A DNA stretch of 13,634 nucleotides, from IMG/VR virus record IMGVR_UViG_2740892028_000001, positions 1 through 13,634 of that record. One strand, 5' to 3'. The notes below the pieces were generated by a model, which did not search any database, was not told the DNA's origin, and saw only the letters and a program-made list of their open reading frames with translations. The position numbers were made by a program, and so were the translations under genes. Positions within the stretch are counted from its first letter, which is position 1, and each line of letters begins with the position of its first letter. This DNA is from a virus (lineage: Duplodnaviria; Heunggongvirae; Uroviricota; Caudoviricetes). Below, in pieces: positions 2,035 to 5,255 of the stretch.

Positions 2035-2048
2035 ATTCACCTCACAAT

Positions 2049-2069
2049 ATAGGTCCACCGTGGCCCTAT
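2049..2069. promoter_or_regulatory. Mnt operator (Omnt), 21-bp near-palindrome
   Basis: ATAGGTCCACCGTGGCCCTAT; half-sites ATAGGTCCAC and ATAGGGCCAC differ at one position. Lies at the predicted Pant transcription start region. Confidence 0.75.
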
Positions 2070-2097
2070 TGAGAATATAGTAGAGTGCTTCTATCAT
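2069..2097 (+). promoter_or_regulatory. Pmnt promoter, divergent from and overlapping Pant
   Basis: Plus strand: -35 TTGAGA (2069-2074), 17-nt spacer, -10 TATCAT (2092-2097). mnt ATG at 2125 with GGAG 8 nt upstream. Confidence 0.6.
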
Positions 2098-2102
2098 GTC
2101 AA
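2074..2102 (-). promoter_or_regulatory. Pant promoter driving arc-ant
   Basis: Minus strand: -35 TTGACA (2102-2097), 17-nt spacer, -10 TATATT (2079-2074). The Arc operator is embedded between the two hexamers. Confidence 0.75.
2077..2097. promoter_or_regulatory. Arc operator (Oarc)
   Basis: Minus strand reads ATGATAGAAGCACTCTACTAT, the 21-bp Arc operator sequence as I recall it from the literature. It sits between the Pant -35 and -10 elements. Confidence 0.85.
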
Positions 2103-2376: not shown

Positions 2377-2475
2377 CGGTGAGTTTATTTTTGCATTTAC
2401 CTGGGCCATATTGACTACTTATAAAATGAGATCAATATTTAATCGCCCAATAACGGGTGTATGTTGAGGTATATC

Positions 2476-2655
2476 ATGGCGAAAAAACCAGGTGAAAACA
2501 CAGGAAAAAACGGCGGAATATACCAAGAAGTTGGCCCACGCGGCGGTAAGAAAGACAATTTTGCCACCGTCAAGGACAACGAAAGGCTTCCACCAACAAC
2601 AAAGCCAGGTCATGGCTGGGTATTGGATAAGCGAACTCCAGACAGCAAAAAGTAA
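2476..2655 (+). CDS. Small Lys/Gly/Pro-rich protein of unknown function, 59 aa; accessory (moron) gene
   Basis: ATG 2476 with GAGG 6 nt upstream; the ORF-track start at 2461 lacks a good RBS. Sequence MAKKPGENTGKNGGIYQEVGPRGGKKDNFATVKDNERLPPTTKPGHGWVLDKRTPDSKK has no hydrophobic segment. Followed directly by a terminator hairpin. A loose resemblance to YjzC-like small proteins is from memory only. Confidence 0.6.
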   Translation: MAKKPGENTGKNGGIYQEVGPRGGKKDNFATVKDNERLPPTTKPGHGWVLDKRTPDSKK

Positions 2656-2660
2656 TAATC

Positions 2661-2684
2661 AAGCCGGGTCACTCCGGCTTTTTG
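2661..2684 (+). terminator. Rho-independent terminator after the small accessory gene; hairpin also contains the stop codon of the convergent HExxH gene
   Basis: Stem AAGCCGG, loop GTCACT, stem CCGGCTT, then TTTT. On the minus strand the same hairpin is followed by GATTATTA, so it may act weakly in both directions. Confidence 0.7.
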
Positions 2685-3034
2685 ATATGTCGCTCGCAGA
2701 ACTCAACAAGCCTGCTCATTAAGTAGCAGTAAGTCTCGTTGGCTCTTCCTGGTTCAACATCAACACCTACCCTTGAGCAGATATCGAATGCCATGTGAGC
2801 GCACTCATGGGCAATAGTAGATAGTTTGCCATTGAACACGCCTATCACATGCAAAACACCATTCTCGCTACTCATTGTATGAGACGCTCCGTTGGCGTCC
2901 GAGTCATGCACGTCAACGCCAAGTTTTTGATGCAGGCGTTGCCATTCTGGAAAGTCTCTACAAAACACAATTGTACCGCTCTCAAAGAGCGGTACTAGCA
3001 TCTTTGGTACGTTTCCAATGTTAACTTTTTTCAT
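2669..3034 (-). CDS. Hypothetical 121-aa protein with an HExxH motif (putative zinc-metallopeptidase-like); accessory gene
   Basis: ATG 3034-3032 with AGGA 4 nt upstream. Motif IAHECAHMAF with a downstream Glu (VEPGRANE). Family not recognised by me. Located where P22 carries sieA. Confidence 0.6.
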   Translation of the reverse strand: MKKVNIGNVPKMLVPLFESGTIVFCRDFPEWQRLHQKLGVDVHDSDANGASHTMSSENGVLHVIGVFNGKLSTIAHECAHMAFDICSRVGVDVEPGRANETYCYLMSRLVEFCERHIKKPE

Positions 3035-3064
3035 GGTATCCTGCGCAAAACTAAGGAGGTTGGT

Positions 3065-3394
3065 GTGTTAGAAATAGTCGTACTCGCTCTTGGGATATCC
3101 TGTTGCGTACTATATGCAGGGTTAGCTGCCCTCAAGAAACAGGTTAAGGAATTAGATCGCTCACATGAAATTGATACAAAAATTGCGCGATTAACAGAAG
3201 AGAATAAACACTTAAAAAATTCCATAAGGGCACTAACTGATGACAACTACAAACTGTCCCATGCATTGGCTAAGTGGGAAATAGTAAGTTATGAAAGAAT
3301 GACCGACATGATTTTTTCGTCTTATATGGCTACAAAATCTCCTGAAACATCAGGAAAAGCAATAATTGCAGCCATTGAAAAGAGAATTAAATAG
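3065..3394 (+). CDS. Hypothetical 109-aa membrane-anchored coiled-coil protein; accessory gene
   Basis: GTG start at 3065 with AGGAGG (3054-3059) 5 nt upstream. N-terminal hydrophobic helix LEIVVLALGISCCVLYAGLAAL, then a heptad-like charged region (KKQVKELDRSHEIDTKIARLTEENKHLKNSIRALTDDNYKL). Visibly AT-rich. Convergent with the gp16 gene. Confidence 0.6.
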   Translation: MLEIVVLALGISCCVLYAGLAALKKQVKELDRSHEIDTKIARLTEENKHLKNSIRALTDDNYKLSHALAKWEIVSYERMTDMIFSSYMATKSPETSGKAIIAAIEKRIK

Positions 3395-3413: not shown

Positions 3414-5255
3414 CTACTGCCTGGTAGCTTCGTTAGTTAGGAGCGGGCGAACGGCGTTAGCAGCCTGATTTAACGCTCGCTCATATGCCGGAGTTCCAGG
3501 CTTGACGTTTGCAAGGCGGAGAAGCATGTTTCTTGCTGCTTTAGACTCATACAAACGCATCATTGCACCAAAGCCAGCCTCAAGCCCCATTGATACGCCA
3601 AGGGTCGCAGTTGCGCCAATCGTCCTTATCCTGTTGGCTTGCGATTGCCCCGTCTGAGTTACTACATTTGCGGTGTCTGACCTTGCTGTTTGCTGTAGAA
3701 CTTCATGAAGAGCATCAAGCTCTTTCATGTGCTTTCCAGAAAAAATAGTGTTGTAAATTTCACCGCCTGACTGAGATTTCAGCTTATTAACTTCAGTGAT
3801 GAACTTGGCTGGAGAGTCCCCGGCCTTTTCCGCTATTTTGCTGACGTAAGCTGCACGCATAGCATCTTTCCCCTTATCATCCAGTGCGCTCCAGATTCGT
3901 TTCACGTCAGATGGTTTTCTGCTTAATACAACGGTATTTATAAGTTCAGGACTGGCTTCACTGCTTGCCTTGTTGAGCTTGTTGGCAATGTTTTTATTAA
4001 GCACCTTATTATAAACGTTTGCATAATCGGAATTTGCTTTAAGGTATTTTGCTGCGTCTGATGCACCGAGGTTTTTAGCAACTGCGTTACGAAGGTCTTT
4101 TGACATTGCATTCTCTACCATATTGGTAGCTGCTTTTGCCTGGTTGGGGAAGACCATAGCATCTCCCTGAACATTAGATCTAAATGCTGTTCTGTGCTGA
4201 CGCAAGAGATCAAACGTAACATCCAAATCAGTTGCAGGGTTTGCTAATTCTTCACGTAGGTTACGCAAGGATGTAAGCAGGCTTTGATTGGCAGACGTCC
4301 CAAGCCGTTCCTGTCTTGCGATCGCTGTATTCAGAGCATTCATGGTATTTGTGGTATCAACTGCGGCATTACCCATTTTATTGGTGACGTCATTGATAAC
4401 AGCGCCAGCGGCATCCTTCCGCCCCCTTAACGTGGTGGTAAGAGATTTCACCACATCATCAGGGTTGTACTCACCAAAACGGTCAAAATAATTACTTACC
4501 AGCTTACTACGCGTTGCATATTGCTCCGCTCGCTTTGAGCCTGTCCCGAGCAAAGCCCCCTCGGCATCCTGAGTTAGGCCGCGAGTGAAAGCATTTTTCG
4601 GCGGGATAACATCAGATGTCATTGGTGTCACGCCCATCGATTCTGATGTGGCAATTTTCTTCGCCACTTCTGGCGCAATATCACCTTTTATAGCCGTTAT
4701 TCCACGCCCTATTCCCTTTGCTGCTGCGGAAAGAACCCCCTGAGCGGCAAGGTTAACTCCGGCATTTTTTGCTGCATTTTGTGCGAAATCGCCTTTCTGA
4801 TTTGCGGCCTCTGCCAGTGATCCAATAGCCATGCTTCCTGCCGTTCCAACTCCTGGAACTAAATACCCACCAATTGTTTCACCGGCTTGCGCGTAGGGGT
4901 CTGTCGGTCTGTCTACTGGACGATAAACATCATCCAAAACCTTGGGTCCACCAAGCCCCTGACTGATTGCATTAATCAGACTTGCGCCGCCCTGCAATAC
5001 GTCAAATGGTATGTTTACCAGACCACGACCAGCCTGTTCTGCAATTTGCCCTGCACTTTGACCACCAGTGAGCCAATCGCCAGCTTGTTGCATCAATGAT
5101 GGTTCTTCACGTGCTGGTTCATTGCTATCCTGGCTGACAGTTTGTTGCTGAACAGACTGTCCAGCAAAATACTCATCAATGGCAGATCCAATATCTTCCG
5201 TGCTCGTACCATCAGGGAAGGTAAATGTCTTACCGTTTGCAGTTACTTTCATCAT
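3414..5255 (-). CDS. Ejection (E) protein, P22 gp16-like, 613 aa
   Basis: N-terminus [33 protein letters not shown] matches P22 gp16 from memory. Its ATG overlaps the gp20 stop (ATGA). Last gene of the gp7-gp20-gp16 triad. Confidence 0.9.

What the first reader, a model, noticed from the sequence alone, without database searches (positions are those of the whole stretch)
2669..3034. 121-aa protein carrying an HExxH motif
The motif IAHECAHMAF with a Glu about 18 residues downstream is compatible with a minimal zincin-type metal site, but the protein is far shorter than typical metallopeptidases. It could be a small peptidase, or a sensor/effector of a defence or anti-defence module. It is divergent from the membrane coiled-coil gene with only a 30-bp spacer, so the two may be co-regulated.
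Basis: partly seen in the sequence, partly recalled or inferred. Interest (0 to 1): 0.6.

Follow-up and report, generated by a model that had tools for sequence, protein, structure and literature searches.

The report
Minimal zinc-protease-like phage gene hkcC
This 121-residue gene of a P22-like phage is the catalogued but uncharacterised gene hkcC, and it belongs to a large phage-only family of very small proteins that keep exactly the four residues of a thermolysin-type zinc protease site; what it cuts is unknown.

Summary
The ORF is real (2669-3034, minus strand, 121 aa, HECAH at residues 76-80). It is 99% identical to hkcC of phage HK620. The same DNA is in P22, where RefSeq does not annotate it. 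It belongs to PHROG 1365 ("unknown function"), has no Pfam model, and is always named "hypothetical".

An exhaustive profile search finds 517 clusters, nearly all stand-alone proteins of 100-145 aa. Across 115 diverse members only H76, E77, H80 and E100 are invariant. The family profile aligns without gaps to thermolysin 134-180, placing these on H142/E143/H146 and N165-E166. The AlphaFold model is confident (pLDDT 89) with a zincin-like topology. Viral structure matches include "SprT-like" and "Metalloprotease" proteins.

The best reading is a cytoplasmic minimal gluzincin metallopeptidase with an unknown substrate.

Co-regulation with the divergent membrane gene is not supported, because that slot swaps between at least three unrelated genes. 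The recurring neighbour in the close clade is the convergent orf59a. Distant relatives sit by terminase or portal genes, and some are in virulent phages.

This is a new family-level assignment within a well-known superfamily. Interest is moderate.

The parts
2669..3034 (-). hkcC coding sequence (121 aa; ATG at 3034-3032, stop TGA at 2671-2669). Member of PHROG 1365.
   Evidence: ORF list. 99% identical to HK620 hkcC, AAK28904.1. PHROG 1365 at E=1.7e-39. 517 homologous clusters.
2795..2809 (-). Codons for H76-E77-C78-A79-H80: the HExxH motif on the predicted active-site helix (residues 71-88). Proposed as two zinc ligands plus the catalytic base.
   Evidence: Read directly from the sequence (CAT GAG TGC GCT CAC). 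H76, E77 and H80 are invariant in 115 of 115 sequences. They align to thermolysin H142/E143/H146.
2723..2740 (-). Codons for N99-E100-T-Y-C-Y104: the proposed third zinc ligand E100 at the start of the second long helix (residues 100-116), with near-invariant Y104 one turn later.
   Evidence: E100 is in 115 of 115 sequences, N99 in 89, Y104 in 107. N99-E100 aligns to thermolysin N165-E166 at identical spacing. Helix boundaries come from the AF2 model.
3035..3064 (.). 30-bp spacer between the divergent start codons. It contains the hkcC Shine-Dalgarno AGGA (3039-3042, minus strand) and the TAAGGAGGT Shine-Dalgarno of the hkcB-like gene (plus strand).
   Evidence: Sequence read. No sigma-70-like promoter for hkcC was found there.
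3004..3034 (+). Region equivalent to the annotated P22 P-sieA promoter, which drives the divergent gene. It overlaps the first 31 nt of the hkcC coding sequence.
   Evidence: P22-pbi annotation at L001 3105-3135, mapped through the 98%-identical alignment with an offset of 101. This is by homology only; the consensus scan did not detect it.
2661..2680 (.). Bidirectional intrinsic terminator (P22 t-mnt, HK620 tORF59A) between the convergent genes hkcC and orf59a. It overlaps the hkcC stop codon.
   Evidence: Terminator scan on both strands. Annotated in HK620 and P22.
2476..2655 (+). orf59a / HkcD (59 aa from MAKKPG...; basic, pI 9.9; YjzC-like). The convergent neighbour that travels with hkcC in the close clade.
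   Evidence: P22 orf59a annotation. Weak Pfam YjzC hit, E=0.0017. Always immediately downstream and convergent, with a 12-30 bp gap, in 111 loci. Homologs in L084 and L088.
It occupies the variable slot that holds sieA in P22. Not part of the hkcC unit.
   Evidence: PHROG 8100 at E=1.4e-69. Maximum Kyte-Doolittle 19-residue score 2.43. The slot is variable.
3414..5255 (-). Gene 16 (DNA transfer/ejection protein), the upstream gene on the same strand. It places hkcC on the late-operon strand.
   Evidence: PHROG 770 at E=1.7e-279. P22 and HK620 annotations.

Best explanation
hkcC encodes a soluble cytoplasmic, stand-alone minimal gluzincin: a thermolysin-type zinc metallopeptidase core cut down to about 120 residues.

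Proposed mechanism (inferred by analogy with thermolysin-type enzymes, not shown here):
- One zinc ion is held by H76 and H80 on the active-site helix and by E100 at the start of the next helix.
- E77 activates the zinc-bound water.
- Y104 may help stabilise the reaction intermediate.
- The substrate is expected to add as a strand to the edge of the small N-terminal beta-sheet (around residues 59-66, just before the HExxH helix).
- Only about 21 residues follow E100, so there is no lower subdomain and the site should be open. That suits cleavage of an exposed or extended segment of a specific protein, rather than general proteolysis.

Expression: in this phage the gene lies on the late-operon strand between gene 16 and ant/gene 9 and has no detectable promoter of its own. 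It is therefore most likely made from the antiterminated late transcript during lytic growth.

Status: it is an accessory gene, not a core gene. The substrate is unknown. My best guess is a host protein or a DNA-associated protein whose removal helps lytic development.

Shown here: the gene is real; the four site residues are conserved; the helix-loop-helix aligns with thermolysin; a zincin-like topology is predicted with confidence; the family is restricted to phages.

Inferred: zinc binding, catalysis, time of expression, and the type of substrate.
For: Site conservation:
- Only H76, E77, H80 and E100 are invariant across 115 sequences down to about 23% identity. E77 is a catalytic residue rather than a metal ligand, so its invariance argues for catalysis and not only metal binding.

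Thermolysin alignment:
- hhalign of the family profile against thermolysin 130-196 (sequence verified) gives an ungapped 47-column alignment, probability 82%, pairwise E=1.1e-5. It matches H142/E143/H146 and N165-E166.
- Control: shuffles that keep those five residues fixed score 16.4+-4.2 against a real score of 30.7, and 1 of 100 reaches it.

Structure:
- AF2 model with pLDDT 89.3 and pTM 0.83, topology b-b-a-b-b-helix(HExxH)-helix(E100).
- BFVD Foldseek: 26 hits at E<=1e-3 with TM 0.6-0.8. The named ones are SprT-like, Metalloprotease and IrrE.
- The PDB Foldseek top hit is the entry titled 'Mechanism of protease dependent DPC repair', 6mdx.

Sequence:
- Every sub-threshold PDB sequence hit is a zinc metallopeptidase.
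- 3 of 115 members touch Pfam SprT-like and 1 touches DUF5700, 'putative zinc dependent peptidase'.

Cellular location: no TM segment or signal peptide; family median pI 6.1.

Genome position: late strand, with a terminator at the 3' end and no promoter of its own. Distant homologs are co-directional with, and often overlap, terminase or portal genes.
Against: - No hit to any Pfam or NCBIfam peptidase model for this protein.
- The thermolysin similarity covers only 47 residues and is largely motif-driven.
- The protein lacks the lower subdomain that completes the cleft in characterised gluzincins. It also lacks counterparts of thermolysin Tyr157 and His231 (established knowledge of family M4). 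Activity on its own is therefore not assured.
- No expression, zinc-binding or phenotype data were found in the literature.
- Late expression is inferred from gene order. In virulent relatives the gene lies in early or middle regions.
Confidence: 0.62

Rival explanations
1. SprT/Wss1/SPRTN-like function. HkcC would be a DNA-context protease that removes proteins covalently or tightly bound to phage DNA ahead of replication or packaging. This would explain why it sits beside terminase, portal and DNA-metabolism genes.
For: - The closest named structural neighbours are SprT-like viral proteins (E=2.5e-5 and 4.5e-4) and PDB entry 6mdx (top PDB Foldseek hit).
- 3 of 115 members hit Pfam SprT-like.
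- Neighbourhoods: directly upstream of the small or large terminase; next to the portal; between DNA ligase and RNA polymerase; near primase/helicase and DNA polymerase.
- 5 of 197 members carry Lys/Arg-rich C-terminal tails.
- Like Wss1/SPRTN (from my own knowledge), it is a minimal zincin with an open site.
Against: - The third ligand is Glu at thermolysin spacing, not the His of SprT-like enzymes.
- The window protein itself has no SprT-like Pfam hit even at E<=1.
- The family is mildly acidic (median pI 6.1) and most members have no zinc ribbon or basic DNA-binding module.
- In P22-like phages the gene sits in the dispensable 'ant moron', not next to packaging genes.
Confidence: 0.15
2. 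Counter-defence or host-takeover protease. HkcC would cleave a specific host protein, such as an immune sensor or effector or a host factor. It would behave as an exchangeable accessory gene in phage 'moron' hot-spots.
For: - It lies in accessory regions: the ant moron, the lysis-terminase gap in a second clade, and a moron inside a Klebsiella siphovirus tail operon.
- One locus has a Tad2-like (PF11195) gene immediately upstream.
- Patchy distribution: 131 of 5,426 E. coli genomes.
- Two paralogs occur in some genomes.
- Present in both temperate and virulent phages.
Against: - No PADLOC hit and no experimental link.
- No consistent neighbouring anti-defence genes; the single Tad2-like neighbour is anecdotal.
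- Many distant members are translationally coupled within morphogenesis operons rather than sitting in isolated morons.
Confidence: 0.15
3. ImmA/IrrE-like regulatory protease of the immunity I region. HkcC would cleave a repressor or antirepressor (Mnt, Arc, Ant or c2), or the prophage-expressed small protein Orf59a, to tune the lysis-lysogeny decision.
For: - It sits next to mnt/arc/ant in this window.
- In the close clade it is tightly paired, convergently, with orf59a, which is co-transcribed with mnt in P22.
- Weak structural similarity to IrrE-annotated viral proteins, E 0.04-0.09.
Against: - No Peptidase_M78 hit.
- The family is common in virulent phages and in genome positions with no repressor nearby.
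- orf59a accompanies only 7 of 128 distant-clade loci, and it occurs without HkcC on plasmids and in Gram-positive phages.
- arc and ant are often absent from hkcC-bearing prophages.
Confidence: 0.05
4. A non-catalytic protein that only keeps a zincin-like metal site for stability or binding, or a metallohydrolase acting on a non-peptide substrate.
For: - There is no lower subdomain and no counterpart of the transition-state residues of larger gluzincins.
- No significant match to any characterised peptidase.
Against: - The catalytic base E77, which is not a metal ligand, is invariant in 115 of 115 sequences. That would not be expected for a purely structural site.
- Y104 is nearly invariant next to E100.
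Confidence: 0.1

Closest known systems
HK620 HkcC (AAK28904.1) / PHROG 1365. Also P22 'hkcC', epsilon34 gp70, ST64T Orf-129, phage L Orf129, ST104 ORF47.
   Same: The same gene: 99% identity to HK620 HkcC, in the same position between gene 16 and mnt. Distant members all fall in PHROG 1365.
   Different: Nothing differs. These entries carry no function ('unknown' or 'hypothetical'), and the ORF is not annotated at all in P22 RefSeq NC_002371.2.
Thermolysin-type gluzincins (MEROPS clan MA(E), e.g. family M4)
   Same: HExxH followed 20 residues after the second His by N-E. The ungapped profile alignment covers both the active-site helix and the glutamate helix.
SprT-like / SPRTN / Wss1 minimal zincins (Pfam PF10263)
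   Same: Small size and a minimal open zincin core. These are the best named structural neighbours in the viral and PDB Foldseek searches, with marginal Pfam hits for 3 of 115 members.
   Different: The third ligand is Glu, not His. There is no zinc ribbon or basic DNA-binding region, and the window protein has no Pfam hit.
PF18894 PhageMetallopep (putative phage metallopeptidase, about 212 aa)
   Same: A phage-specific HExxH protein. It is frequently encoded 3 bp downstream of HkcC-family genes of the second clade.
   Different: No detectable homology: hhalign probability 2%, though that alignment is shallow. It is nearly twice the size. It is a neighbour rather than a relative.
ImmA/IrrE (Peptidase_M78) regulatory metalloproteases of mobile elements
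   Same: A small HExxH + Glu protease encoded next to repressor genes in a mobile-element immunity region.
   Different: No M78 profile hit and only faint fold similarity. There is no conserved pairing with a repressor, and the family is also present in virulent phages.
Stand-alone minimal zincins such as the archaeal minigluzincins and Pfam Zincin_1 (recalled from memory, not tested by name)
   Same: The concept is the same: a soluble metallopeptidase catalytic core of about 100-120 aa with HExxH plus a Glu or His third ligand.

Membership tests
HkcC / PHROG 1365 | Significant full-length match to the family profile and to the founding member HK620 HkcC | tested here: met
   PHROG 1365 at E=1.7e-39 over residues 1-121. 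99.2% identity to HK620 hkcC.
Zincin / gluzincin superfamily (clan MA(E)) | HExxH motif on an alpha-helix, conserved across homologs | tested here: met
   H76, E77 and H80 are invariant in 115 of 115 sequences. They lie in predicted helix 71-88.
Zincin / gluzincin superfamily (clan MA(E)) | Third zinc ligand is a Glu on the next helix, 18 or more residues downstream of HExxH | tested here: met
   E100 is invariant and sits at the start of helix 100-116, 20 residues after H80. It aligns to thermolysin E166.
Zincin / gluzincin superfamily (clan MA(E)) | The two His and the Glu are clustered in space around one metal site | not testable with these tools
   Model coordinates are not exposed; only the secondary structure and pLDDT are returned. 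Indirect support comes from the ungapped alignment to the thermolysin helix-loop-helix.
Zincin / gluzincin superfamily (clan MA(E)) | Significant fold match to a solved zincin structure | tested here: inconclusive
Zincin / gluzincin superfamily (clan MA(E)) | Zinc binding and peptidase activity | not testable with these tools
   This needs biochemistry. No published data were found.
Thermolysin family M4 | Overall homology to the M4 catalytic and C-terminal domains (Pfam Peptidase_M4 and M4_C) | tested here: not met
   No Pfam hit at E<=1. The similarity is limited to 47 residues, and only about 21 residues follow E100.
SprT-like (PF10263) | Match to the SprT-like profile, with His as the third ligand | tested here: not met
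   The window protein has no hit. Only 3 of 115 relatives hit, best E=1e-4. The third conserved ligand is Glu.
ImmA/IrrE (Peptidase_M78, PF06114) | Match to the M78 profile and conserved pairing with a cognate repressor gene | tested here: not met
   No Pfam hit. Neighbourhoods of distant members lack repressors.
PhageMetallopep (PF18894) | Match to the PF18894 profile | tested here: not met
   No Pfam hit. hhalign against an alignment of the neighbouring PF18894 proteins gives probability 2%.
Known anti-phage defence system components (PADLOC) | Match to any PADLOC model | tested here: not met
   0 families at E<=1.

The most novel reading that the evidence does not exclude
HkcC would define a phage-wide family of the smallest known thermolysin-type proteases, used as a dedicated effector during lytic growth. 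It would either cleave a host immune or housekeeping protein (counter-defence), or clear proteins from phage DNA ahead of the packaging motor. In P22-like phages it could also form an antagonistic pair with the prophage-expressed basic protein Orf59a, encoded convergently 13 bp away. Orf59a could be an inhibitor or decoy, so that a resident prophage blunts the HkcC of a superinfecting relative.
Probability: 0.15. Interest if true: 0.7.

Novelty: new member of a known kind. Interest (0 to 1): 0.4.

Why it matters
P22 and HK620 are reference phages, yet this conserved gene has no function assigned and is not annotated in the P22 RefSeq record. Every database name found for it is "hypothetical" or "unknown".

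Assigning it to the gluzincin metallopeptidases gives a concrete, testable biochemical hypothesis for a family of more than 500 sequence clusters. The family occurs in temperate and virulent phages of many hosts.

If the protein is active, it would be among the smallest stand-alone thermolysin-type catalytic cores. Its substrate would reveal a step of phage-host interaction or DNA handling that has not been described.

If it proves inactive or dispensable, it is simply one more phage accessory gene, now better labelled.

Tried and rejected
- Pfam, NCBIfam and PADLOC scans of the protein found nothing meaningful. The only hits were chance lantibiotic matches over 'HECAH'-like Cys/His stretches.
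- PDB sequence search with the 20-sequence profile gave 0 hits. With the 115-sequence profile it gave only sub-threshold zincins.
- The AFDB50 library was unavailable.
I used sub-alignments instead.
- hhalign against the neighbouring PF18894 family gave probability 2%, and that alignment is too shallow to be decisive.
- Literature searches for hkcC, SieA/P22, 'SprT-like phage anti-defense' and PF18894 found no functional data.
- I abandoned bulk Pfam annotation of all neighbour clusters because my crude ORF caller produced many spurious ORFs. Only the recurrent neighbours were annotated.
- The longer family members were checked for fused domains, and none were found.
- Rejected: co-regulation with the divergent membrane gene, because that slot is variable.
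- Rejected: orf59a as an obligatory partner, because it is clade-specific and also occurs alone elsewhere.
- Rejected: a lysogeny-specific role, because the family is present in Schitoviridae and Autographiviridae.

Full report
**1. What is there**

The window is the late-gene arm of a P22-like (Lederbergvirus-type) phage or prophage. On the minus strand it runs portal, scaffold, coat, gp4, gp10, gp26, gp14, gp7, gp20 and gp16, followed by the 'ant moron' with mnt, arc and ant.

The finding is a real ORF at 2669-3034 on the minus strand: 121 aa, ATG start, AGGA Shine-Dalgarno 5 nt upstream. HECAH occupies residues 76-80 (nt 2795-2809). The spacer to the divergent GTG-started 109-aa ORF is exactly 30 bp.

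Window 2400-3068 is 98% identical to P22 and HK620. The ORF is HK620 hkcC (product 'unknown'). In P22 the same ORF exists but is not annotated in AF527608 or RefSeq NC_002371.2, which list only 'sieA promoter' and 'mnt terminator' over it. A comparative paper lists hkcC and 59a as P22 genes of unknown function (PMC2629481). No functional study was found.

**2. Is it more than chance?**

The protein is His-rich, and HExxH occurs in 2.6% of shuffles, so the motif alone proves little. Conservation decides the matter.

The word-indexed search found only 32 relatives, all 'hypothetical' and none with a Pfam domain. The exhaustive profile search found 517 clusters at E<=1e-3 and 143 at E<=1e-10, almost all stand-alone proteins of 100-145 aa. 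In an alignment of 115 of them, down to about 23% identity, exactly four columns are invariant: H76, E77, H80 and E100. G49, G90 and Y104 are nearly invariant.

The conserved one is E100, in the motif N-E-[T/A]-[F/Y]-C-Y-L.

**3. What it looks like**

AlphaFold2 with the family alignment gives a confident model (pLDDT 89.3, pTM 0.83). Its topology is strand-strand-helix-strand-strand, then a long helix 71-88 carrying HExxH, a loop, and a helix 100-116 that starts at E100. That is the layout of a zincin upper domain plus the 'glutamate helix'.

Only about 21 residues follow E100 (family median), so the lower subdomain of ordinary zincins is missing. The protein has no TM segment or signal peptide, and the family is mildly acidic (median pI 6.1).

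**4. Comparison with known proteins**

No Pfam, NCBIfam or PADLOC model matches. PHROG 1365 ('unknown function') matches at E=1.7e-39, and it also matches the distant members.

Against solved structures nothing is significant:
- Foldseek's top hit is 6mdx, 'Mechanism of protease dependent DPC repair', at E=0.2.

Against predicted viral structures there are 26 hits at E<=1e-3 (TM 0.6-0.8), from phages of Ralstonia, Erwinia, Achromobacter, Eggerthella, Acinetobacter and crAss-like viruses. Most are uncharacterised. The named ones are 'SprT-like' (2.5e-5, 4.5e-4), 'Metalloprotease' (2.4e-3) and, more weakly, 'IrrE'.

Per-member Pfam scans gave SprT-like for 3 of 115 and DUF5700 ('putative zinc dependent peptidase') for 1. 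The 115-sequence profile against PDB sequences returned only sub-threshold zinc metallopeptidases: myroilysin, BMP1/tolloid, thermolysin and peptidyl-Lys metalloendopeptidase.

The thermolysin hit was ungapped, so I followed it up. They align to the family profile over 47 ungapped columns (hhalign probability 82%, pairwise E=1.1e-5). The correspondences are H76=H142, E77=E143, H80=H146 and N99-E100=N165-E166.

As a control, 100 full shuffles of the segment scored 10.5+-2.7. Another 100 shuffles that kept the five catalytic-site residues in place scored 16.4+-4.2. The real score is 30.7, and one motif-fixed shuffle reached it. So the resemblance extends somewhat beyond the motif itself, but it remains a local helix-loop-helix similarity and not evidence of membership in family M4.

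**5. Genomic context**

(a) The divergent membrane gene is not a fixed partner. P22 has sieA there and HK620 has hkcB. An E. coli prophage with a 100%-identical hkcC has an unrelated 161-aa gene. Among 119 loci with a near-identical hkcC the slot holds SieA (21), the 161-aa type (18), hkcB-like (12) or other/none (68). The P22 record places the sieA promoter inside the first 31 nt of hkcC, reading away from it.

(b) The recurring neighbour in the close clade is orf59a. This is a basic YjzC-like 59-aa protein. It is always immediately downstream and convergent, with a 12-30 bp gap containing a bidirectional terminator. The counts are 100 of 119 close loci, 4 of 4 intermediate loci (including a Klebsiella siphovirus-type prophage where the pair is inserted between tail genes), but only 7 of 128 distant loci. 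Orf59a also occurs without HkcC on small plasmids and in Gram-positive phages, so neither gene needs the other.

(c) A second enterobacterial clade (about 40% identity) includes ST64T Orf-129, phage L Orf129, epsilon34 gp70 and ST104 ORF47. It lies between the lysis cassette (Phage_lysozyme, Rz) and the small terminase. It is often preceded by DUF2560 and followed 3 bp later by a PF18894 'PhageMetallopep' protein. Some genomes carry both paralogs.

(d) More distant members sit in several places:
- overlapping the portal or terminase genes;
- among replication genes;
- in virulent phages: Schitoviridae phCDa, and Autographiviridae Kurepalu-1 between DNA ligase and RNA polymerase.

Plasmid hits are few, and several are phage-sized records. 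In E. coli, 131 of 5,426 complete genomes carry the gene, always as 'hypothetical protein'.

**6. Expression (inferred)**

hkcC is on the strand of the late operon. No sigma-70-like promoter was found in the 30-bp spacer. In P22, late transcription under gp23 antitermination is known to read through this region to gene 9 (textbook P22 biology, from my own knowledge). Late expression is therefore the simplest expectation. It agrees with the co-directional, often overlapping placement of relatives in morphogenesis operons, but it was not shown here.

**7. Most likely mechanism**

The protein is most likely a zinc-dependent hydrolase of the gluzincin type:
- H76, H80 and E100 bind the metal.
- E77 is the general base.
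- Y104 is a possible intermediate-stabilising residue.
- The substrate would bind along the edge strand that precedes the HExxH helix.

Because the lower half of the cleft is missing, I expect a narrow protein substrate presented as an exposed segment, or dependence on a partner. I put about 0.6 on an active metallopeptidase.

The nature of the target is open. The rivals are:
- A SprT-like role on DNA-bound proteins. Fold neighbours and DNA-transaction neighbourhoods favour it. The Glu ligand, the acidic pI and the lack of a DNA-binding module count against it.
- A counter-defence or host-takeover protease. Moron locations, patchy distribution and one Tad2-like neighbour favour it, but there is no direct evidence.
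- An ImmA-like immunity protease. This is disfavoured by presence in virulent phages and by the absence of a conserved repressor partner.
- A non-catalytic or non-peptide role. This is disfavoured by the invariance of E77.

**8. Novelty and verdict**

The gene itself has been catalogued since the HK620 genome record and as PHROG 1365. Its kind, a zincin metallopeptidase, is thoroughly known, and minimal zincins exist.

What appears to be unrecorded in every source I could query is the assignment of this widespread phage family to the gluzincins, with thermolysin-identical ligand spacing. I therefore rate it a new member of a known kind, with moderate interest (0.4).

Its peptidase interpretation is supported with a corrected third ligand. 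Its co-regulation idea is not supported.

Noticed in passing
window 2669-3034; P22 NC_002371.2 / BK000583.1 13861-14223: The P22 reference records do not annotate this 121-aa ORF at all; only 'sieA promoter' and 'mnt terminator' features lie over it. The ORF is nevertheless 99% identical to HK620 hkcC and belongs to a family of more than 500 clusters. Two GenBank phage records label the homologous ORFs implausibly: KR296688.1 calls it 'GNAT family acetyltransferase', and KR296686.1 calls orf59a a 'tubulin/FtsZ family GTPase domain protein'.
   Followed up: partly
window 2476-2655 (+), orf59a: orf59a is a basic (pI 9.9) 59-aa YjzC-like protein. It is kept convergent to hkcC with a 12-30 bp gap in 111 loci. 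It also occurs on its own on small Acinetobacter, Nitrosospira and Shewanella plasmids and in Brochothrix, Clostridium and Streptococcus phages. Its function is unknown.
   Followed up: partly
window 2973-2995: A perfect 10-bp-stem, 3-nt-loop hairpin (GTACCGCTCT-TTG-AGAGCGGTAC) lies inside the hkcC coding region (codons for VPLFESGT), just upstream of the region equivalent to P-sieA. A similar hairpin with different stem bases is present in two loci at about 41% identity (L220, L218) that encode VPLFDSG. Most other homologs lack it. It could be a coding by-product or a regulatory or terminator element.
   Followed up: partly
window 3065-3394 (+) and equivalent slot in L001, L002, L257: The slot between hkcC and gene 16 is an exchange site. 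It holds different small membrane or lipoprotein-like genes: sieA in P22, hkcB-like here and in HK620, and a 161-aa protein in E. coli LR-60. The junction falls right at the start codon, so the upstream promoter region inside hkcC is shared. The alternatives may be analogous superinfection-exclusion genes.
   Followed up: partly
L084 1330-1968; L180 and about 25 other loci (cluster c11): A 212-aa PF18894 'PhageMetallopep' protein (HELYH) is encoded 3 bp downstream of the second-clade HkcC paralog in about 22-26 loci, giving two putative metallopeptidases in tandem. PHROG 513, which it matches at E=1.4e-100, is labelled 'transposase'; that looks like a mislabel.
   Followed up: partly
IMGVR_UViG_2531839002_000002 (L143 and L238); IMGVR_UViG_2651869843_000001 (L145 and L251): Some P22-like genomes carry two HkcC-family paralogs at about 40% identity. 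One is in the ant moron and the other is between the lysis genes and the terminase.
   Followed up: no
L094 5660-5935: In a Citrobacter freundii lambdoid prophage a Tad2-like (PF11195, anti-Thoeris family) gene lies immediately upstream of the HkcC homolog, between the spanin gene and the small terminase gene.
   Followed up: no
window 2046-2102: Overlapping divergent promoter-like sites, including an 11-of-12 match on the minus strand, lie between arc and mnt. This is as expected for P-ant and P-mnt of the P22 immunity I region. The mechanical ORF for arc (74 aa, 1873-2097) is longer than the 53-aa Arc annotated in P22.
   Followed up: no
P0066, P0073, P0136, P0158, P0049 (family members): Five of 197 family members carry a C-terminal extension that ends in a Lys/Arg-rich tail, preceded by an acidic or coiled stretch. 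This could be a nucleic-acid-binding or capsid-targeting add-on. No Pfam domain was detected.
   Followed up: partly
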